A DNA stretch of 64,000 nt from positions 6,606-70,605 of the forward strand of contig JBDLTF010000003.1 of assembly GCA_039799225.1 (NCBI GenBank), in the 5' to 3' direction. Position numbers and translations under genes: made by a program. The notes below the pieces were generated by a model. That model was not told where the DNA came from. It was given only the letters and a program-made list of their open reading frames with translations, and ran no database searches. Positions 50,240-56,986 of this stretch are shown piece by piece. Every line of letters starts with the position of its first letter. Positions within the stretch are counted from its first letter, which is position 1. This DNA is from Candidatus Parcubacteria bacterium. Its GTDB lineage: Bacteria > Patescibacteriota > Minisyncoccia > Phycocordibacterales > PALSA-1337.

Positions 50240-50485
50240 TTAATGAGGCAATACCTTCATTAAAACGTCGCTCATAAATCCCATGACCTTCTCTACATAA
50301 AGGTAATTAACAATTTTAGTATAGACAGGAAAGAAATCATAGCGAAAAATAATAGAACCTATCAACACTATAAGAATAGCAACAAAAAGCAACTTAGAAG
50401 GTTTAAATACAAACCGAATTAGTTCCTCGAGTATAGGATTTTGATGATAGTCATTTTTTCTTCTTTTTCTCATGCGGCTTGTCAA
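50240..50485 (-). CDS. Hypothetical small membrane protein (last gene of the TIR cassette)
   Basis: 81 aa with one or two TM helices (LLFVAILIVLIGSIIF). AT-rich. Confidence 0.35.
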   Translation of the reverse strand: MTSRMRKRRKNDYHQNPILEELIRFVFKPSKLLFVAILIVLIGSIIFRYDFFPVYTKIVNYLYVEKVMGFMSDVLMKVLPH

Positions 50486-50494
50486 TAATGTAAC

Positions 50495-51202
50495 TTAGAA
50501 TGTGATATTGTTTTCCACTATCATCCTCCTAAGCTTCCGAAAACCTTCCCAAGCTTTCATATTGCAGTCTTTAATTTTATGAGACCCACAAAAACACTTG
50601 CTTCCGCCATCTACTCTCTCGCCTCTGAATAATACTCTTTCTACTCGTTCCCATGCATGTTTCGCCTTTTTTAATTTACGGATGCAAGCTTTAGCATGTT
50701 CTACTGCCTGTTGAGAATCATAAAATGAATGGAAGGCTCCCGCAGCGCCATGAAGATACTCATCCCATGGCCACGCTTCATGTTCATCATAAAACCGCTG
50801 TCCGTAAAGAAATGGAGTAACTAATTCTTCAATGAACATAGGCAAAGAATAGTTTTTTCTGTTCAAAAAGTCGATTTCTTCCGTTGGTCCACAGAGACAG
50901 GCCTTGCCGACAGGATCTGTATAGAAGTGTCTATCTACATTTGAATTGATTTTTTCATCGAGCACCTTAAGTTTCGGAAGAAAATTCTTATCGGTAGATA
51001 GAGTAATGACGACGCCATATGAACCTGACAAAATAACTCCAGAAGCCGTTTGATCGCGAAGGGTGAGAGGTGTGAAGGTGTTGTTTGCTTCGTCATATGC
51101 ACCAGAGAATATAAACTCTCCCAAAATCTCCGTTTCATCATCGTTAAACTTTAACGTCGGATGATGTATGATCAACCATTCTTTATCGGCCTCGGTTACC
51201 AT
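50495..51202 (-). CDS. Hypothetical protein with two C(L/F)CG motifs immediately downstream of the TIR gene; candidate effector of unknown fold
   Basis: No recognisable SIR2, Macro, SLOG or nuclease motif. Contains GKACLCGPTEE and GSKCFCGSHKIKDC. Its start overlaps the end of the TIR gene by about 20 nt, suggesting translational coupling. Confidence 0.4.
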   Translation of the reverse strand: MVTEADKEWLIIHHPTLKFNDDETEILGEFIFSGAYDEANNTFTPLTLRDQTASGVILSGSYGVVITLSTDKNFLPKLKVLDEKINSNVDRHFYTDPVGKACLCGPTEEIDFLNRKNYSLPMFIEELVTPFLYGQRFYDEHEAWPWDEYLHGAAGAFHSFYDSQQAVEHAKACIRKLKKAKHAWERVERVLFRGERVDGGSKCFCGSHKIKDCNMKAWEGFRKLRRMIVENNITF

Positions 51203-51797
51203 GATTGTTATCACCCCATGGACGTGTAGGTGTAAAAGAGCTTCCTGTCGCATAAGTTGCCACCGCAACTGATCCAGTAGACATATGAGTGCTTGCTTTC
51301 AGTTTCGTCTCTCCTTTGTGATCTGTTCGTGTTTGGAAAGCATCTTCTCCCCACTGTCCAAGATTTTTGATGCCGTTATCCATCACCCAGTCATAGACTT
51401 TACAGATTGAGGAGAGAGGAGTTCCATCAGCAAGAATGATTTTGTCGAATGGATTTTGTCCTGCAACGTCAGTTTTACTATCGAGATTTTTTACATTGTG
51501 AATTTGGACTCCAACCAATCCATTCCCACGCTCCCAACTCTGACGAATCTCGTAGCGTACCCAGTCGCGCTCAGAGGTTTCTGCGCCGATGAGAACGACG
51601 GTAACAGATGTAGATTTAAGCTGATCGTTAATCCATCGCTTGATTGCATCTGGCCCTTGTTGTTCGATCTTTTCCCATTCTACGGAATCTATGACGCCGT
51701 ACTCGTCTTGATCGGCGATGGCGTGGCTATTACGTACCTGAGCCGCTCGTTGCGAATCTCGTTCGTAATGAAAACTGTAAAATGTTTTTCGTGCCAT
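51183..51797 (-). CDS. thsB: ThsB-like TIR domain protein (DUF1863/TIR-like, Thoeris ThsB family)
   Basis: The N-terminus MARKTFYSFHYERDSQRAAQVRN, TSVTVVLIGAETSERDWVRYEIRQSWERGNGLVGVQIH and NPFDKI align block by block with Bacillus ThsB from memory (MAKRVFFSFHY...VRN; TSVTCVLIGSKTFERRWVRYEI.KS.ERGN...GVHI; NPF). Confidence 0.7.
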   Translation of the reverse strand: MARKTFYSFHYERDSQRAAQVRNSHAIADQDEYGVIDSVEWEKIEQQGPDAIKRWINDQLKSTSVTVVLIGAETSERDWVRYEIRQSWERGNGLVGVQIHNVKNLDSKTDVAGQNPFDKIILADGTPLSSICKVYDWVMDNGIKNLGQWGEDAFQTRTDHKGETKLKASTHMSTGSVAVATYATGSSFTPTRPWGDNNHGNRGR

Positions 51798-51800
51798 ATT

Positions 51801-52193
51801 TTATAGAATTAAAATAATGATAATGTGAATCAGAGCCAAGCCTCCGTAAAAAAGGGTTGCTGTTGTCGAGAAAGCACAACAACCGACTACTCCCAACTTT
51901 TCAAATGATTTTATGTCCATTGAAAAATCTATCTGTTCCGTTGTCTTTTTGCGGACCTCGTCGTACAATTCCCGGAACGCTTTTTCTTTTGAGAGATAAT
52001 AGGCATCCAGGAGCCAGAAGAAGAGAAGCACGCCGAGGGAAGTGAAGATGTATGTGCAGTCAATTTCTTTAAAACTGAGCAACACGAGAGCGCCTATCAC
52101 CGTTACAGTCCATCCCTTCAGCAGAAAGGAGTTACTCGCCATACGGTTGATTGCCTGCTGAACAAAATCCAAATGTTTTAGTTTTGCTTCCAT
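51801..52193 (-). CDS. Small membrane protein (3 predicted TM helices), 4 nt upstream of the TIR gene
   Basis: Three hydrophobic segments (TVTVIGALVLLSF, LGVLLFFWLLDAYYL, ALIHIIIILIL). No known domain. Confidence 0.4.
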   Translation of the reverse strand: MEAKLKHLDFVQQAINRMASNSFLLKGWTVTVIGALVLLSFKEIDCTYIFTSLGVLLFFWLLDAYYLSKEKAFRELYDEVRKKTTEQIDFSMDIKSFEKLGVVGCCAFSTTATLFYGGLALIHIIIILIL

Positions 52194-52199
52194 ATGTTT

Positions 52200-52433
52200 T
52201 TAATGAATACGGTCTTTAGGTGGACAGTCGTCATTTCCGAAACTGTCCTTGTCCTTTATCTGACCCTGTCGGTTATGATAAACTGCTTCTGTTTCATTGT
52301 TCTTCGCAAGCTTGTGCGTCTTATCCTCTGAAGCCGCTTGAGTACGGTGAACAGATACGGGTTTTTCCATTCCTTCCTTTTTTACTGCCCAATCACTTCC
52401 CCAAGGAACACTGTGAAAATTTTTCTTTGCCAT
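52200..52433 (-). CDS. DUF2188 family small protein
   Basis: MAKKNFHSVPWGSDWAVKKEGMEKPVSVHRTQAASEDKTHKLAKNNETEAVYHNRQGQIKDKDSFGNDDCPP matches the DUF2188 consensus (hVVP..dGWAVK.EGa.r.s..h.Tk.eA...g..LAkn...El.iH..dG.I...dSYG.DP.PP). Confidence 0.65.
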   Translation of the reverse strand: MAKKNFHSVPWGSDWAVKKEGMEKPVSVHRTQAASEDKTHKLAKNNETEAVYHNRQGQIKDKDSFGNDDCPPKDRIH

Positions 52434-52623: not shown

Positions 52624-53292
52624 ATGGAAAAAGAAACCCTGACACCGAAGCAGCAGGAATTATATTCTTATCTGAAAGAATATAATGAGAAACATAATGA
52701 TTCACCGACCCTTAAGGAAATGGCTGCATCCATTGGAGCGAACTCGTTGAATAGTGTTGTTCAATATCTTAAAATCCTTGAGAAGAAGAATTATATTTTG
52801 AGGACAAAACATGCACGAAGAAATATTGAACTACGCAAGATGATCTCGTCTGGTCTAATGGAATGGCCAGTTAGTATTCCAGTCATCTCCTCCGTTGGCT
52901 GTGATAATCTAAGTGTCGTCGCGTACGAAGAATATGATGAGTTTATTGATGTTGATAGAAAACTTGTTGAAAATAAAGGTGACGTTGTTGCTGTACGAGC
53001 TGTAGGCAATAGCATGAATGATGCTGACATTCACGACGGTGATTATGTCCTTATTGAGCTAACAGATAATGCAAAAAATGGAGATAGAGTGGCTGCGATT
53101 ATTGGTGATATGGTTACAGTGAAAAAACTAGAGAAAAGAGAAGGTTTGGTAATTTTACGCCCTGAATCAAAGGATCCAAAATACAGGCCAATTATTTTAA
53201 ATGAAGACTTTAAGATCGCTGGAAAAGTAATTTGTGCAATTCCAGGAACAAGTATGGACATCACGGAGGTAGTTCCCATAAGACCACAATAA
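52624..53292 (+). CDS. lexA: LexA-type repressor (winged-HTH plus S24 self-cleaving peptidase)
   Basis: N-terminal LexA DNA-binding pattern (LTPKQQELYSYLKEY...SPTLKEMAASIG.NSLNSVVQYLKILEKKNYI). The S24 catalytic Ser/Lys dyad context is GNSMNDADIHDGDYVLIE...GDMVTVKKL. Confidence 0.8.
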   Translation: MEKETLTPKQQELYSYLKEYNEKHNDSPTLKEMAASIGANSLNSVVQYLKILEKKNYILRTKHARRNIELRKMISSGLMEWPVSIPVISSVGCDNLSVVAYEEYDEFIDVDRKLVENKGDVVAVRAVGNSMNDADIHDGDYVLIELTDNAKNGDRVAAIIGDMVTVKKLEKREGLVILRPESKDPKYRPIILNEDFKIAGKVICAIPGTSMDITEVVPIRPQ

Positions 53293-53296
53293 ATAC

Positions 53297-53662
53297 ATGG
53301 CAAAGAAAAAATTATTTTTGACAGATTTGACGCTTCATTCCAAGGAACATCGTGCTACGCCTAATTTGGAAAAGGCCGAACAAAGAAAGGAAAACGGGTA
53401 TTCTTCTCCGCGTCTATATTCTCCCCAGCTCAACAAGGATGACTTTAAAATATATCCTGATGGAAAGTTTGAAATTATCATAAAGTTGCCTCCCGATATC
53501 CAAAAGGGCTTAGATAGCGGAGAAATCGAAATTGTGATACCAAAAGACGGTCTGCTCGTCTATGCAGGCAAAGATATGATAGAGAAGGCGAAACAGCTTG
53601 AAGAAAAGAAGAGGCGAGAAATTATCCACAGGGGCCGTAGACAAGTTTGGCGTAAAGAGTAG
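53297..53662 (+). CDS. Hypothetical protein (121 aa), co-directional with lexA
   Basis: ORF with a 4-nt spacing from the lexA stop. Lys/Glu-rich. No motif recognised. Confidence 0.35.
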   Translation: MAKKKLFLTDLTLHSKEHRATPNLEKAEQRKENGYSSPRLYSPQLNKDDFKIYPDGKFEIIIKLPPDIQKGLDSGEIEIVIPKDGLLVYAGKDMIEKAKQLEEKKRREIIHRGRRQVWRKE

Positions 53663-53816
53663 AATGTAATTACAATTGAATATTACTGGTGGTGTACCGC
53701 ACTCTGTGCTATGCCCACTTCGTAGGAAAGTCTAAAAGAATCACTCGTTGGTTTTTTAAGTCTTCTTCGCGAAGTGGGCTTTCTCGTTTATTTATTAGTA
53801 ATTATCACTTAATAAT

Positions 53817-55097
53817 ATGAAAAATATAAATTTAGTCTGGCACTCCGAGCGTCGCCAAGTAAGTACACTCAAAGCGTGGGATCGAAATCCTCGCAAGATC
53901 ACAGCGCACAAGTTCAATCAGCTCATCAGGCGCATCAAAAGCCGCGGCTTCCACGATGTCATTAAAATCGATACCGACGGCACTATCCTTTCAGGTAATC
54001 AGCGCAAAAAAGCCTTGATCAAGCTCGACATCAAGGAAGTGAATGTCCTTGTTCCTAACCGCAAGCTCACGGATGAGGAACGCGATCGCATCGGCATTGA
54101 GAGTAACACCAACGACGGCGAATGGGATTACGAGGGTTTGAAGTCCTTTGATCTCGACACACTTACCGACGTCGGCTTTGACACAAACAGCCTTTCTGAA
54201 ATGTGGAGCGAAAACCTCACGGCGGATGATGACGACTTCGATCTTAATGAGGAAATCAAGAAAATAACCGAGCCAAAAACCAAGCTCGGAGATCTCATCG
54301 TCATGGGCAATCATAAGCTGATCTGCGGAGATTCAACCAAACCCGAAGTCCTTAAAAAACTTTTCGGTGATGATCGTGCTTCGATGATATACAGCGACCC
54401 TGTCTTCAACATCAACTACTCATATAAATCAGGATTGGGCAGCAAGAAGAATTATGGTGCAACCGTTAATGACACTCGCACCGACACGGAATACCATGGC
54501 TTCCTGAAAAAGAGCATGGTATGCGCCTTGTCGGTCACGAAACCTGATGCTCATATCTTTTATTGGTCCGACCAATGCTACATATGGCTCATACAGACCC
54601 TGTACCGTGAGCTTAGTATCGAGAACAAACGTGTATGTCTGTGGATCAAGAACGGCTTTAGTCCTACGCCTGCCATAGCGTTCAATAAGTGCTTTGAACC
54701 CTGTATCTACGGAATCCTTGGTCAACCTTATCTCAATGACGGCATCCAAAATCTCAACGAGGTATCTAACGGCAATCTAACTACAGGCAACGACATGCTC
54801 AATCAGATTTCCGACATCTGGGCAGTGAAGCGATTGTCAGCAAAGGACTACGAACACGCCACAAGCAAGCCTCCAAAACTCCATGAAAAAGCGATTCGTC
54901 GCTGTACTCGCCCAGGTGACATTATCTTGGACAGCTTTTCGGGATCGGCAAGTACCATGATTGCGGCCGAGCAGTTGAAGCGTAGGGTTTATGCAGTCGA
55001 GCTTGAACCCCGCTTCTGCGATCTTGCGATCAAAAGGTACGAGAAGCTCACAGGCAAAAAAGCAAAGATAATCCACAACTACCATGAAGAAAAATAA
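53817..55097 (+). CDS. ParB-like nuclease domain fused to a DNA (N6-adenine/N4-cytosine) methyltransferase, phage-type
   Basis: N-terminal ParB/Srx-like block (LKAWDRNPRKI...GFHDVIKIDTDGTILSGNQRKKA). The C-terminal beta-class amino-MTase has motif IV SDPVF before motif I DSFSGSASTMIAA. Confidence 0.7.
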   Translation: MKNINLVWHSERRQVSTLKAWDRNPRKITAHKFNQLIRRIKSRGFHDVIKIDTDGTILSGNQRKKALIKLDIKEVNVLVPNRKLTDEERDRIGIESNTNDGEWDYEGLKSFDLDTLTDVGFDTNSLSEMWSENLTADDDDFDLNEEIKKITEPKTKLGDLIVMGNHKLICGDSTKPEVLKKLFGDDRASMIYSDPVFNINYSYKSGLGSKKNYGATVNDTRTDTEYHGFLKKSMVCALSVTKPDAHIFYWSDQCYIWLIQTLYRELSIENKRVCLWIKNGFSPTPAIAFNKCFEPCIYGILGQPYLNDGIQNLNEVSNGNLTTGNDMLNQISDIWAVKRLSAKDYEHATSKPPKLHEKAIRRCTRPGDIILDSFSGSASTMIAAEQLKRRVYAVELEPRFCDLAIKRYEKLTGKKAKIIHNYHEEK

Positions 55098-55503
55098 AGT
55101 CAAAGATAATTTCCTCGCAGAGTTAAGAAAGATACCAATCGTACAGGTTGCCTGTGAACGCATCGGGATTTCAAGGAATAGTGTCTATCGTTGGAAAAAT
55201 ACCGATGAGGCATTTTCTGATGAAATGGACAGAGCACTCGCAGAGGGAGAGGCATTGGTGAATGACCTCACTGAAAACCAGCTTCTCACCCTCATCAAGG
55301 AAAAGGAGTGGTCAGCCATATCGTTCTGGCTTCGTCATCGTAATCCGAAGTTTAGGGAGCGTGTTGAAATCACGACGAAGATGGAAAGTGACGGCAAGCT
55401 AACAGCTGAGCAAGAATCAATCGTGCGGGAAGCACTACGTCTTTCTGCAGTCACACCTATTCAAATTATTACTGATAAAAAACAAGACAATGAACCAAAA
55501 TAA
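55084..55503 (+). CDS. Phage terminase small subunit (HTH)
   Basis: HTH VACERIGISRNSVYRWKN. It overlaps both the preceding MTase and the following terminase large subunit, the typical terS-terL arrangement. Confidence 0.6.
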   Translation: MKKNKVKDNFLAELRKIPIVQVACERIGISRNSVYRWKNTDEAFSDEMDRALAEGEALVNDLTENQLLTLIKEKEWSAISFWLRHRNPKFRERVEITTKMESDGKLTAEQESIVREALRLSAVTPIQIITDKKQDNEPK

Positions 55504-56986
55504 AGAGATAGCGCAAGAGCTGGTCGAAGCCATGATCAAGGATCAGAAGGTCCGCATAGCGATCACTAAGAAAAGTCATTGGTACTTTTTCCATTTCTAT
55601 TTTGCAAAGTATGTCAAACATGCAACAGCAGAGTTCCAAAGAGAAATTATCCGCCTCACAGAGAACGAGGATATCAAAAATTTCTTCATTGTTGCATTTA
55701 GAGGGTCGGGAAAATCTACCATAATTACGACTTCGTATGTTCTCTGGGCGATTCTTGGAGAGCAGCAGAAAAAATTTATCCTCATTCTAGGTCAGACAAG
55801 AAATCAGACAAAACAATACATGATGAACATCAAGCGAGAGCTTGAAACGAATGATATTCTTAAAAGAGATCTCGGTCCGTTTCAGGAAGAAAGCGATGAG
55901 TGGGGTGCAACCTCTATCGTGTTCTCACAACATAATGCACGAATAACTGTAGCATCAACAGAACAAGGTATTCGCGGGCTGCGACATAATGAGCATCGCC
56001 CCGACCTCATTATTGGGGATGATATCGAAGACCTCAACTCGACAAAAACAAGGGAGAGTCGACAAAAAACTTTTGAGTGGCTCACGGGAGAAGTAATTCC
56101 TGCTGGAGACCAGAATACCCGCCTGATCCTCATCGGAAACCTTCTTCATGAAGACTCTCTCCTTATGAAAATCAGGGAGAAGCTTGAGAAAAAAGAAATG
56201 AAAGGGGTGTTTAAATTCATACCCCTACTTGATTCCGAGGATAAAAGCATGTGGCCAGGGAAATACCCAACCCTTGAATCAATTGAAGAAGAAAAGCAAA
56301 GGACAGGAAGCGAACAATCGTGGCAAAGAGAATACCTCCTCAGGATTATTCCAACTGAGGCGCAAGTGATTCATAAGGAATGGATCCAATACTACGATGT
56401 GTTACCACCGCGAGGTGCTGAAAACTACGAATATACATGGGCAGGAATTGATCTTGCAATATCAGAAAAAACTACAGCAGACTATACCGCGATTGTCGGA
56501 GCGCAAGTGCATGGCAGACGTAAAAAAAGAAAAATATATATTCTTCCTAATCCCATTAATCAGAGGATGCTCTTTCCAGACATTGTTCGGTTGTGCAAAG
56601 ACTATATCAAAAATGTGCTTCATAACGGCAAGCTTGTAATTGAGAGCGTTGCTTTTCAAGCCTCCCTAGCGCAGTTGCTTCATAGCGAAGGTCATTATGT
56701 GGAGGGGGTGCCTGTTCATGGAGACAAGCGATCGAGGCTTGCTATGACCTCATCACTTATACAAAATGGCTTCATACTATTTCCAAAACAAGGAGCGGAA
56801 CAGCTCATTCAGCAGCTTGTCGGATTCGGAGTTGAAAAACATGATGACCTAGTCGATGCTTTTACTCTACTTATTCACAAGCTTATGGAAGAAGATAACC
56901 AACCAAGACCGAATATCGGATGGTTCGATACGCGAACAGGCAGATTTGAGTGGGCGATCAAGTACGATGACGACGAAATCGTGTAG
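55490..56986 (+). CDS. Phage terminase large subunit (ATPase plus nuclease)
   Basis: Walker A FRGSGKST, Walker B-like LIIGDDIED and a C-terminal RNase H-like nuclease region (GIDLAISEKTTADYTAI...VESVAFQ...DDLVDAF). Confidence 0.75.
   Translation: MNQNKEIAQELVEAMIKDQKVRIAITKKSHWYFFHFYFAKYVKHATAEFQREIIRLTENEDIKNFFIVAFRGSGKSTIITTSYVLWAILGEQQKKFILILGQTRNQTKQYMMNIKRELETNDILKRDLGPFQEESDEWGATSIVFSQHNARITVASTEQGIRGLRHNEHRPDLIIGDDIEDLNSTKTRESRQKTFEWLTGEVIPAGDQNTRLILIGNLLHEDSLLMKIREKLEKKEMKGVFKFIPLLDSEDKSMWPGKYPTLESIEEEKQRTGSEQSWQREYLLRIIPTEAQVIHKEWIQYYDVLPPRGAENYEYTWAGIDLAISEKTTADYTAIVGAQVHGRRKKRKIYILPNPINQRMLFPDIVRLCKDYIKNVLHNGKLVIESVAFQASLAQLLHSEGHYVEGVPVHGDKRSRLAMTSSLIQNGFILFPKQGAEQLIQQLVGFGVEKHDDLVDAFTLLIHKLMEEDNQPRPNIGWFDTRTGRFEWAIKYDDDEIV

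What the first reader, a model, noticed from the sequence alone, without database searches (positions are those of the whole stretch)
50495..51202. Unknown Cys-motif protein translationally coupled to the TIR gene: candidate novel Thoeris effector
Its start overlaps the stop of the TIR gene, the classic arrangement for sensor/effector pairs. It has two C(L/F)CG motifs (GKACLCGPTEE and GSKCFCGSHKIKDC) that could bind zinc, and a conserved-looking aromatic/acidic core (FYDEHEAWPWDEYLHGAAGAFHSFYD). None of the usual Thoeris, CBASS or Pycsar effector signatures are recognisable by eye (HxxH/SIR2 GAG, Macro GGGV, patatin GxSxG, HNH, or TM clusters).
Basis: inference. Interest (0 to 1): 0.65.

Follow-up and report, generated by a model that had tools for sequence, protein, structure and literature searches.

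The report
E2-like regulator of a Thoeris TIR
The "unknown Cys-motif protein" is most likely not a toxin but a ubiquitin-E2-like enzyme, of the kind that controls the signalling enzyme in E2-type CBASS phage defence, here attached to a Thoeris-type TIR enzyme that carries the same C-terminal tail the E2 family always accompanies.

Summary
The ORF is real. It lies on the minus strand at 50495-51202 (235 aa), and its ATG overlaps the end of a ThsB-type TIR gene by 20 nt. It is not an orphan: PADLOC "E2" models of CBASS match it at 1e-29.

- **Active-site residues.** H92, C102 and H151 are invariant in 71 diverse relatives. They parallel H87/C101/H152 of the studied Serratia E2.
- **Cys motifs.** The first motif holds that catalytic Cys. 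The second is a SEC-C-like zinc knuckle.
- **Context of closest relatives.** They sit in the same prophage slot behind SAVED effector + CD-NTase, the E2-CBASS arrangement.
- **Wider pairing.** In 116 loci the upstream gene is a tail-bearing TIR (78) or a CD-NTase (at least 25). Nearly all partners end in a shared P-x-x-P-[W/H] tail, and tail similarity tracks E2 similarity.
- **The window's TIR.** It carries a CBASS-type tail (AYATGSSFTPxRPWG).
- **Effectors vary.** Some loci have the 3-TM protein found here at 51801-52193, others a SIR2-STALD ThsA, never both.

Best reading: a prophage-borne Thoeris-like operon (DUF2188, TM effector, TIR, E2) in which the E2 covalently processes the TIR tail to control signalling. 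The effector idea is not supported. I found no paper describing E2-only Thoeris, so I rate it a new variant of a known kind.

The parts
50495..51202 (-). E2-like protein (235 aa), the finding. An N-terminal UBC/UEV-like core (about aa 1-165) is followed by a C-terminal helical extension with a SEC-C-like knuckle.
   Evidence: PADLOC E2 models: PDLC00872 at 1.2e-29 plus 6 others, including the E1-E2 model. Family alignments A1 and A2. AF2 models with pLDDT 84.8 and 79.5 show helix, 4-5-strand meander, Cys loop, helices. The top Foldseek PDB hits for the core are all TSG101 UEV domains, but weak (E 0.14-0.9).
50927..50929 (-). Codon of H92 (DRHF), the predicted catalytic His.
   Evidence: Invariant in 71 of 71 relatives. 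hhalign places it on the His of the human E2 HPN motif. It parallels H87 of Serratia E2.
50897..50899 (-). Codon of C102 (ACLCG), the predicted catalytic Cys.
   Evidence: Invariant in 71 of 71; C104 is present in only 56 of 71. hhalign places it on the catalytic Cys85 of UbcH5B. It parallels C101 of Serratia E2.
50750..50752 (-). Codon of H151 (WPWDEYLHG), the second invariant His.
   Evidence: Invariant in 71 of 71. It may correspond to H152 of Serratia E2. The structural equivalence was not verified.
50561..50596 (-). SEC-C-like Cys knuckle C203-x-C205-x7-C213-N214. The fourth ligand is His in 67 of 71 relatives but Asn here.
   Evidence: C203, C205, C213 and H214 are at least 90% conserved. 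Pfam SEC-C is hit by 13 of 71 relatives and E2-Crich by 1.
51183..51797 (-). ThsB-type TIR protein (204 aa): TIR domain aa 1 to about 157, low-complexity linker, C-terminal tail.
   Evidence: Pfam ThsB_TIR 3e-26. PADLOC ThsB1 2.6e-60 and PDC-M50B 3.9e-59, both matching aa 1-157 only. BcThsB structures 6LHY/9B7D match at 6.5e-26, and WVRYEI is conserved, so catalytic E85 of BcThsB corresponds to E83 here.
51213..51242 (-). Conserved tail motif SSFTPTRPWG (aa 186-195) of the TIR protein, followed by 9 variable residues. Predicted E2 recognition and processing site.
   Evidence: Nearly identical to the C-tails of CD-NTases in the closest E2-CBASS loci (L006 AYATGSSFTPARPWG). P..P[WH] is present in 72 of 76 upstream partners and in 112 of the 120 best TIR homologues.
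51183..51202 (.). 20-nt overlap of the TIR stop and the E2 start (translational coupling). SD-like GGGGTGA at 51211-51217.
   Evidence: The same 20-nt overlap occurs in 48 of 76 metagenome loci. The W codon lies 7-13 nt upstream of the E2 start in 34 of 39 loci.
51801..52193 (-). 130-aa membrane protein with three hydrophobic segments (28-41, 47-62, 108-130). Predicted effector.
   Evidence: PADLOC PDC-M50A 2.3e-44. phrog_19896 9e-31. 279 homologues, none with a Pfam domain. Conserved motifs and TM segments. Sits upstream of the TIR gene in 13 GTDB and 16 metagenome loci and is never found together with ThsA.
52200..52433 (-). DUF2188 protein (77 aa), first gene of the tightly packed cluster. 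Role unknown.
   Evidence: Pfam DUF2188 4e-14. PADLOC PDC-S16 3e-24. Occupies the same slot in both the CBASS and the TIR versions of the locus.
50240..50473 (-). Small hydrophobic ORF (77 aa from its ATG), 21 nt downstream of the E2 stop. Probably prophage backbone; membership of the system is uncertain.
   Evidence: No family hit. Conserved after the E2 in L007 (66%) and about 700 nt after the E2 in CBASS locus L006 (57%).
52624..53292 (+). LexA/S24-type repressor, transcribed divergently from the defence operon. Start of the prophage (ParB-methyltransferase, TerS and TerL follow).
   Evidence: Pfam Peptidase_S24 and LexA_DNA_bind. PHROG terminase and methyltransferase hits. The same repressor-adjacent slot is used in related loci.

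Best explanation
Window 50495-52433 (minus strand) is a prophage-borne, Thoeris-like abortive-infection operon: DUF2188, a 3-TM effector, a ThsB-type TIR and an E2-like protein. The flagged protein is an E2-only, 'Cap2-short'-type ubiquitin-conjugating-enzyme homologue.

**Proposed mechanism, by analogy with E2-CBASS**
1. The E2 binds the C-terminal tail of the TIR protein (F-x-P-x-x-P-W motif).
2. It attacks the tail with C102, assisted by H92 and H151. This clips off the last residues and forms a covalent TIR~E2 thioester without any E1 or ATP.
3. It may then pass the TIR on to an amine, giving self-ligation or TIR chains.
4. This sets the activity of the TIR, most likely by priming it or holding copies together.
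5. On infection the TIR converts NAD+ into an ADPR-derived signal.
6. The signal activates the small membrane protein, which damages the membrane and aborts infection.

**Shown here**
- Membership of the CBASS-E2 sequence family.
- The invariant His/Cys/His set.
- The conserved gene order with overlapping start.
- The shared tail on TIR and CD-NTase partners, and its co-variation with the E2.
- The repeated exchange of partner enzyme.
- The interchangeable effectors.

**Inferred**
- The covalent chemistry and the scissile bond.
- The direction of regulation.
- The identity of the TIR signal.
- The pore-forming role of the TM protein.
For: **1. E2 identity**
- PADLOC E2 models match at 1.2e-29 over aa 3-233, with six further E2 or E1-E2 models.
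- Relatives hit Pfam E2-ntca, E2-Crich and SEC-C.
- H92, C102 and H151 are invariant in 71 diverse members. They mirror H87/C101/H152, shown by mutagenesis to drive tail cleavage and thioester formation in Serratia E2.
- hhalign puts H92 and C102 on the HPN His and catalytic Cys of human E2s.
- AF2 topology is UBC-like, and the top PDB neighbours of the core are UEV domains.

**2. Context of the closest relatives**
- The closest relatives checked for context (P0002-P0004, P0008; 54-41% identity) and P0010 (36%) lie directly after a SMODS CD-NTase and a SAVED effector. This is E2-CBASS, in the same slot beside an S24 repressor.

**3. Tail grafting**
- The TIR tail ...TYATGSSFTPTRPWG... matches the CD-NTase tails of those loci: 13 of 15 positions with L006 and 11 of 15 with L009.
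- A CD-NTase tail query even hits the TIR tail by tblastn at 8e-5.
- The TIR domain itself is closest (67-71%) to TIRs that carry a different tail subtype (NP..PWA), paired, where checked, with a sister E2 clade.

**4. Generality**
- GTDB loci: of 36, 21 have TIR upstream and at least 8 have CD-NTase.
- Metagenome loci: of 80, 57 have TIR and 17 CD-NTase.
- P..P[WH] tails occur in 72 of 76 partners.
- TIR- and CD-NTase-linked E2s are intermixed on the E2 tree. For example, the L019 (CD-NTase) and L032 (TIR) E2s are 75% identical and their partners share the tail core PNTGFVPHSPHSDYA[N/D]GER.
- Tail similarity tracks E2 similarity: rho 0.33, with 3 of 2000 permutations reaching it.

**5. Effector elsewhere**
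- TM protein or SIR2-STALD ThsA occur in TIR loci, never both, and SAVED proteins occur in CBASS loci.

**6. TIR competence**
- The TIR is homologous to BcThsB, and the WVRYEI segment holding its catalytic Glu is conserved (E85 there by my own count, E83 here).
Against: - No PDB sequence or profile hit was found, so homology to the studied Serratia E2 is indirect.
- hhalign probability to human E2s is only 8.8%.
- The partner tails lack the conserved C-terminal Gly that defines canonical E2-CBASS and Cap2 substrates. The residue after P-W is C, S, G or A, occasionally R or N.
- The W codon and the next codon double as an SD-like sequence for the E2 gene. Part of that conservation may therefore be at the nucleotide level.
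- No Lys is conserved in the E2 family, so the isopeptide step of Serratia E2 (K159) cannot be transferred.
- The window protein deviates at two conserved columns: H158 instead of Glu, and N214 instead of His in the knuckle.
- Nothing here shows anti-phage activity.
Confidence: 0.7

Rival explanations
1. One reading: the Cys-motif protein is the Thoeris effector. It would bind the TIR-made signal and kill or arrest the cell.
For: It is translationally coupled to the TIR gene. It has no annotated family in Pfam or NCBIfam. Thoeris effectors are very diverse: 29 putative types are reported.
Against: - It matches CBASS E2 models at 1e-29.
- The same family is found with CD-NTases, whose signals are chemically unrelated.
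- It co-occurs with established effectors, SAVED proteins and SIR2-STALD ThsA.
- No ligand-binding domain (SLOG, Macro, SAVED, CARF) or toxic domain was detected.
- A separate TM protein, recognised as the partner of this TIR family (PDC-M50A/B), lies in the operon.
Confidence: 0.04
2. The E2-like protein is a true conjugase that attaches the TIR protein to other proteins (phage or host targets), as Cap2 does with CD-NTases. This differs from a self-contained E2~TIR adduct. The energy would come from cleavage of the tail peptide bond, in a sortase-like transpeptidation.
For: Cap2-type conjugation of CD-NTases to cellular targets is established, and Thoeris operons with Cap2+Cap3 exist. Serratia E2 builds poly-cGAS chains. 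No conserved acceptor Lys exists in this E2 family, which argues against a fixed intramolecular acceptor.
Against: There is no E1, JAB or Ubl gene in the operon. No target is identifiable from sequence. This reading overlaps largely with the best explanation and differs only in the acceptor.
Confidence: 0.18
3. The E2-like protein is a non-catalytic adaptor or chaperone. It binds the proline-rich tail to stabilise, localise (perhaps through the SEC-C-like knuckle) or inhibit the TIR, without covalent chemistry.
For: UEV domains, which are inactive E2 folds that bind proline-rich PTAP peptides, are the nearest structural neighbours of the core model. The tail is proline-rich (F-x-P-x-x-P-W) and lacks the canonical Gly.
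Against: The Cys and both His are invariant across 71 diverse members at 25% mean column identity, which is hard to explain without catalysis. The variable 0-11 residues after the motif look like a leaving peptide.
Confidence: 0.08

Closest known systems
E2-CBASS (type II 'short' CBASS): CD-NTase + effector + stand-alone E2. Studied in Serratia marcescens (Yan et al., bioRxiv 10.1101/2022.05.25.493364; Xiao et al., mLife 2026, PMC12948482).
   Same: - The protein falls in the same PADLOC E2 family, and its closest relatives are in SAVED + CD-NTase + E2 operons.
- It is a stand-alone E2 with no E1 or JAB.
- The E2 gene directly follows the signal synthase.
- The synthase carries a C-terminal extension.
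- Invariant His/Cys/His parallels H87/C101/H152.
   Different: - The partner here is a ThsB-type TIR, not a CD-NTase.
- The tail motif is P-x-x-P-[W/H] followed by a small residue, not a conserved Gly.
- The E2 is about 235 aa with a SEC-C-like knuckle, against the smaller (18 kD) Serratia E2.
- No conserved acceptor Lys.
- No detectable sequence match to the solved Serratia E2.
Thoeris operons with Cap2 (E1-E2) and Cap3 (JAB) ancillary genes (Yirmiya et al., bioRxiv 10.64898/2025.12.03.692087).
   Same: A Thoeris TIR protein carries a C-terminal tail and is paired with ubiquitin-like conjugation machinery borrowed from CBASS.
   Different: Those systems have an E1-E2 fusion plus a JAB peptidase, and a Gly-containing tail. 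Here there is only a 235-aa E2, no E1 or JAB, and a PW tail. I did not find an E2-only arrangement described there.
PADLOC candidate system PDC-M50 (A = small TM protein, B = TIR).
   Same: The TM protein and the TIR domain of this operon match PDC-M50A and PDC-M50B at 2e-44 and 4e-59.
   Different: PDC-M50 is defined as a two-gene system, and its TIR model stops at about residue 160. The tail and the E2 are not part of it. No paper on PDC-M50 was found.
Type I Thoeris (ThsB TIR + ThsA SIR2-SLOG).
   Same: The TIR is homologous to BcThsB with the catalytic Glu segment conserved. Sister loci pair tail-TIR + E2 with a second ThsB and a SIR2-STALD ThsA (L034; 8 metagenome loci).
   Different: In this window the effector is a 130-aa TM protein, not ThsA, and an E2 is added.
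Eukaryotic UBC E2 enzymes and UEV domains.
   Same: Same topology: N-terminal helix, beta-meander, loop with His...Cys, then helices. hhalign aligns H92/C102 to the HPN His and catalytic Cys. UEV domains are the top structural neighbours.
   Different: All similarity scores are below significance. There is no ubiquitin or E1 in this system.

Membership tests
CBASS-type stand-alone E2 (E2-CBASS / 'Cap2-short') | Sequence membership in the curated E2 models of CBASS | tested here: met
   PADLOC PDLC00872 at 1.2e-29 over aa 3-233, plus six more E2 or E1-E2 models. Pfam E2-ntca is hit by 2 of 71 relatives. The window protein itself has no Pfam or NCBIfam hit.
CBASS-type stand-alone E2 (E2-CBASS / 'Cap2-short') | UBC/E2 fold | tested here: inconclusive
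CBASS-type stand-alone E2 (E2-CBASS / 'Cap2-short') | Catalytic Cys with an upstream His and a second His (C101, H87, H152 in Serratia E2) | tested here: met
   C102, H92 and H151 are invariant in 71 of 71 relatives. The residue roles are taken from Yan et al.. Equivalence rests on position and pattern, not on a structural superposition.
CBASS-type stand-alone E2 (E2-CBASS / 'Cap2-short') | Encoded next to a CD-NTase | tested here: not met
   The upstream gene in the window is a ThsB-type TIR. CD-NTase partners are found only in related loci. The locus is therefore not a CBASS.
CBASS-type stand-alone E2 (E2-CBASS / 'Cap2-short') | Partner has a C-terminal extension ending in a conserved Gly that is the acyl donor | tested here: inconclusive
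   A conserved tail exists (P..P[WH] in 72 of 76 partners). The following residue is C 45, S 19, A 4, G 3, R 1, so it is not a conserved Gly. The window has G195 after PW and also G203 next to last.
CBASS-type stand-alone E2 (E2-CBASS / 'Cap2-short') | Forms a covalent thioester or isopeptide adduct with its partner and clips its C-terminus | not testable with these tools
   This needs biochemistry. No conserved acceptor Lys was seen in the family.
Thoeris | ThsB-type TIR protein with catalytic Glu | tested here: met
   Pfam ThsB_TIR 3e-26. BcThsB 6LHY/9B7D at 6.5e-26 with WVRYEI conserved, E83 here.
Thoeris | Adjacent effector gene that varies between systems | tested here: met
   The 3-TM protein (PDC-M50A 2e-44) lies immediately upstream. 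Sister loci use SIR2-STALD ThsA instead, and the two are mutually exclusive.
Thoeris | TIR makes an ADPR-derived signal on infection that activates the effector; anti-phage protection | not testable with these tools
   Requires phage challenge and LC-MS.
Thoeris with Cap2/Cap3 (Yirmiya et al. 2025) | E1-E2 fusion (Cap2) and JAB peptidase (Cap3) in the operon | tested here: not met
   The protein is 235 aa with no E1/ThiF region. No JAB hit was found among the operon genes.
   No such domains were found. The family co-occurs with SAVED, ThsA and TM effectors.
SEC-C-type zinc knuckle | C-x-C-x(7-8)-C-[H/C] ligand set | tested here: inconclusive
   The family has C203, C205, C213 and H214 at 94% or more, and 13 of 71 members hit Pfam SEC-C. 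The window protein has N214, and H208 might substitute. Metal binding was not testable.

The most novel reading that the evidence does not exclude
The roughly 30-residue 'P-x-x-P-W tail + E2' pair is a portable, enzyme-agnostic control cassette that evolution has plugged repeatedly onto unrelated immune signal synthases (TIR, CD-NTase, possibly others such as the tail-bearing 345-aa protein of L015). It would work by E1- and ATP-independent, ubiquitin-like transpeptidation that does not need the canonical C-terminal glycine. In this E2 clade TIR, not CD-NTase, is the main client, so 'E2-Thoeris' would be a widespread, so far undescribed branch of TIR immunity. It could, for example, activate the TIR by covalent TIR chain formation.
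Probability: 0.35. Interest if true: 0.8.

Novelty: new variant of a known kind. Interest (0 to 1): 0.62.

Why it matters
**Transferability of the E2 control.** E2-only regulation has so far been studied only with CD-NTases. A natural series of loci has the same E2 lineage and the same tail on either a TIR or a CD-NTase, sometimes with E2s 75% identical. This would show that the control mechanism acts through the tail alone and is transferable. It gives a direct handle on how TIR signalling is licensed in bacteria.

**A non-glycine tail.** The tail motif, and the absence of a conserved acceptor Lys, suggest a variant of ubiquitin-like chemistry. This bears on ideas about the origin of ubiquitin signalling.

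**Annotation.** Current pipelines would call this locus a two-gene candidate (PDC-M50) plus an orphan E2, so the three-part system is being missed.

**Host range.** It also documents such systems on prophages of Parcubacteria (CPR bacteria), where defence biology is little explored.

Tried and rejected
- **Family scans of the window protein:** Pfam, NCBIfam and PHROGs gave nothing.
- **PDB sequence searches:** phmmer and profile searches gave only chance-level hits, and the solved Serratia E2 was not retrieved.
- **Foldseek:** the full-length model against PDB and BFVD gave no significant match. The truncated core model gave only weak UEV hits.
- **hhalign:** single UbcH5B against A1 was meaningless. 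A2 against four human E2s gave a sensible alignment but low probability.
- **IMG/VR scan with the E2 alignment:** no relatives found. A2 was too diverse for pattern scanning.
- **Supplementary tables of Yirmiya et al.:** searching for this TIR sequence or for E2 terms was uninformative, and the files are truncated.
- **Literature searches:** PDC-M50, E2-CBASS + TIR, and Thoeris + E2 returned nothing relevant.
- **Promoter/terminator and tRNA scans around the operon:** nothing usable, and no tRNA lies near the prophage end.
- **Zinc site at the first Cys motif (rejected):** only C102 is invariant, and it aligns with the E2 catalytic Cys.
- **PW conservation as purely an RBS effect (rejected):** the Pro codon third position varies freely, and the upstream F-x-P positions lie outside the SD window.
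- **P0149 as a natural TIR-E2 fusion (not used):** it looks like a frameshifted or partial gene call.
Full report
**Observation.** The flagged ORF is real and lies on the minus strand. Its ATG is at 51202 and its stop at 50495-50497, giving 235 aa. Upstream on the same strand is a 204-aa TIR gene (51183-51797). The two reading frames overlap by 20 nt. They turn out to be the most conserved columns of a protein family. The word-indexed search found only 11 relatives. The exhaustive profile search found 1690 cluster representatives at E<=1e-3 and 114 at E<=1e-30.

**What the protein is.** Pfam, NCBIfam and PHROGs do not recognise the window protein. The PADLOC models named E2, built for type II CBASS, match it strongly: PDLC00872 at 1.2e-29 over aa 3-233, with six further E2 or E1-E2 models. 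Among 71 diverse relatives with 25% mean column identity, the invariant residues are G28, H92, C102, H151 and C203. C205, C213 and H214 are at least 90% conserved.

- Some relatives hit Pfam SEC-C (13 of 71), E2-ntca (2) and E2-Crich (1).
- A profile comparison with four human E2s has low probability (8.8%). It nevertheless aligns the N-terminal helix, the PPK loop, the HPN His with H92, and the catalytic Cys85 with C102.
- AF2 models (pLDDT 84.8 for the full protein, 79.5 for the core) show helix, beta-meander, Cys loop, then helices.
- The top six PDB neighbours of the core are TSG101 UEV domains, below significance.

In the Serratia E2-CBASS system, C101 and H87 cleave the CD-NTase after its C-terminal Gly and form a thioester. 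H152 tunes the interconversion between thioester and isopeptide. The invariant H92/C102/H151 set matches that pattern. The first Cys motif is therefore the E2 active-site loop, and the second is a SEC-C-like knuckle. In the window protein the fourth ligand of that knuckle is Asn rather than His.

**Genomic context.** The operon is tightly packed, in this order:

| Gene | Coordinates (minus strand) | Assignment |
|---|---|---|
| DUF2188 | 52200-52433 | PADLOC PDC-S16 |
| 130-aa three-TM protein | 51801-52193 | PADLOC PDC-M50A, 2e-44; phrog_19896 |
| TIR | 51183-51797 | ThsB1 / PDC-M50B, about 1e-60, matching aa 1-157 only |
| E2 | 50495-51202 | PADLOC E2 models |
| Small hydrophobic ORF | 50240-50473 | no family hit |

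It is transcribed divergently from an S24/LexA-type repressor. A ParB-methyltransferase and the small and large terminase subunits follow, so the operon sits at the repressor end of a prophage. The TM protein is 100% identical to a protein of a Candidatus Parcubacteria MAG. The TIR is homologous to B. cereus ThsB (6LHY/9B7D, 6.5e-26), with the WVRYEI segment holding the catalytic Glu conserved.

**Related loci.** The closest relatives whose context I checked (54-41% identity), and one at 36%, lie directly after a SMODS CD-NTase and overlap it by 17-20 nt or sit within about 10 nt of its stop. A SAVED effector precedes the CD-NTase, in the same repressor-adjacent slot and often with the same DUF2188 gene. 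These are E2-CBASS systems. Only the window and an 88%-identical groundwater contig have TM + TIR instead.

The TIR's C-terminal tail (...TYATGSSFTPTRPWGDNNHGNRGR) is homologous to the CD-NTase tails of those CBASS loci, for example L006 (...VAYATGSSFTPARPWGGNDYDKRSR). It matches 13 of 15 positions with L006 and 11 of 15 with L009. A CD-NTase tail query detects the TIR tail by tblastn. The TIR domain itself is closest (67-71%) to TIRs that carry a different tail subtype...I.NP..PWA.. In the two such loci I examined, those TIRs are followed by a sister E2 clade with a canonical CxCGSxxxFxxCH knuckle. The window locus therefore looks like a recombinant: a TIR catalytic domain joined to the tail + E2 module of an E2-CBASS.

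**Generality.**

| Collection | Loci | TIR upstream | CD-NTase upstream |
|---|---|---|---|
| GTDB genomes | 36 | 21 | at least 8 |
| Metagenome contigs | 80 | 57 | 17 |

- The GTDB loci come from Patescibacteria, Saccharibacteria, Acidobacteriota, Gemmatimonadaceae and others.
- One metagenome locus was first mis-scored as CD-NTase because of the tail homology, and I corrected it.
- Upstream partners of either type end in P-x-x-P-[W/H] in 72 of 76 cases. The overlap is 20 nt in 48 of 76.
- Of the 120 best TIR homologues, 112 carry such a tail.
- On an E2 tree, TIR- and CD-NTase-linked E2s are intermixed. The window clade is nested among CD-NTase-linked E2s. Conversely, L019 (CD-NTase) is nested among TIR-linked E2s. 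It is 75% identical to the E2 of L032, and the two partners share the tail core PNTGFVPHSPHSDYA[N/D]GER.
- Tail similarity follows E2 similarity: rho 0.33, reached by 3 of 2000 permutations. This holds in TIR-versus-CD-NTase pairs too.

**Effectors.** Effectors differ between loci. Metagenome TIR loci have the TM protein (16 loci) or a SIR2-STALD ThsA (8 loci), never both. L034 is a type I Thoeris (ThsB + ThsA) with a tail-TIR + E2 in front. The E2 is thus the constant companion of the tail, not of any effector or any particular signal chemistry.

**Mechanism.** The best-supported reading is that the protein is a stand-alone E2-like regulator acting on the TIR tail as in E2-CBASS.

1. It recognises the F-x-P-x-x-P-W segment.
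2. C102, with H92 and H151, attacks the tail, releases the trailing 0-11 residues and forms a TIR~E2 thioester.
3. It may then transfer the TIR to an amine.

TIR enzymes generally need self-association for activity (my own knowledge, not tested here). Covalent tethering or chain formation, analogous to the reported poly-cGASylation, is therefore an attractive way to prime signalling. The TIR product would then activate the small TM protein. The covalent steps, the direction of regulation, the signal and the pore function are all inferred.

**Caveats.**
- The tail lacks the conserved Gly of canonical systems. After P-W come C, S, G or A, and rarely R or N.
- TGG plus the next codon (TGY or GGY) forms an SD-like GGTG or GGGG at a fixed distance from the E2 start. 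Part of that preference may be an RBS constraint. The free third position of the Pro codon and the conserved F-x-P upstream argue for protein-level selection.
- No Lys is conserved in the E2 family.

**Comparison with what is known.** E2-CBASS is described. A December 2025 preprint notes Thoeris operons with Cap2 (E1-E2) + Cap3 whose TIRs carry a Gly tail, and others with Cap9-11. I found no description of an E2-only Thoeris, of the PW tail, or of PDC-M50 in the searchable library. That library is incomplete, so prior description elsewhere cannot be excluded. PADLOC would split this locus into the two-gene candidate PDC-M50 and an orphan E2.

**Verdict.**
- The effector interpretation is not supported, although the functional link to the TIR is.
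- I rate the finding a new variant of a known kind.
- Interest is moderate to high. It extends E2-only control from CD-NTases to TIRs, and it offers natural tail and enzyme swaps that make the mechanism directly testable.

Noticed in passing
window 51211-51219 (minus); related loci L001-L052: The Trp codon of the partner's tail plus the next codon (TGG TGY or TGG GGY) lies 7-13 nt upstream of the E2 start in 34 of 39 loci and reads as an SD-like GGTG or GGGG. The residue after P-W may therefore be shaped by dual coding: protein tail and ribosome-binding site.
   Followed up: partly
window 52200-52433 (minus): A DUF2188 gene (PADLOC PDC-S16, phrog_3220) sits between the S24 repressor and the effector gene in both the CBASS and the TIR versions of this prophage slot. 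In L077, L079 and L080 it lies upstream of the TIR with no TM-protein homologue detected between them. A 2025 preprint lists DUF2188 as a putative Thoeris effector. Its role here is unknown.
   Followed up: partly
window 50240-50473 (minus): A small hydrophobic ORF (77 aa) 21 nt downstream of the E2 has no family hit. It is conserved after the E2 in L007 (66%) and about 700 nt after the E2 in the CBASS locus L006 (57%). It is unclear whether it belongs to the prophage backbone or is a fifth component.
   Followed up: partly
window 50561-50596 (minus); L006, L007: The window E2 and its two closest relatives have lost the His of the CxC...CH knuckle (Asn or Asp instead) but share a His at position 208 that most other members lack. 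This may be a compensating ligand.
   Followed up: no
L015:3962-4999: A 345-aa protein upstream of an E2 relative ends in the same tail (PFSPKSPWCSL) but is neither a TIR nor a recognisable CD-NTase. Its only hit is a weak metallo-beta-lactamase match (E 0.0015, below the Pfam cut-off). It may be a third kind of client enzyme.
   Followed up: no
L050-L052 (contigs carrying P0116): One island holds two TIR units. The first is HTH + M78 peptidase + TM protein (PDC-M50A-like) + a tail-less ThsB, with no E2. The second, divergent unit is a tail-TIR + sister E2, followed by a 369-aa protein and a Tle1-like phospholipase. This suggests that E2-containing and E2-free versions coexist.
   Followed up: no
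window 52624-56986 (plus): A prophage module lies directly beside the operon: S24 repressor, ParB-N6/N4 methyltransferase fusion, small and large terminase. Host cell-division genes (ftsA, ftsZ), trxB and a secreted SNase-like nuclease lie on the other side. No tRNA or integrase was seen at this end.
   Followed up: partly
window 51801-52193 (minus): The TM protein is 100% identical to 'hypothetical protein RLY66_331' of a Candidatus Parcubacteria MAG (contig 79,113 nt), so the window very likely comes from a CPR bacterium. The TM family (279 homologues, no Pfam domain) has the strongly conserved motifs KHLxFIQxxIxRMxxNSFLLKGW and FWxLDxYxLxxER.
   Followed up: partly
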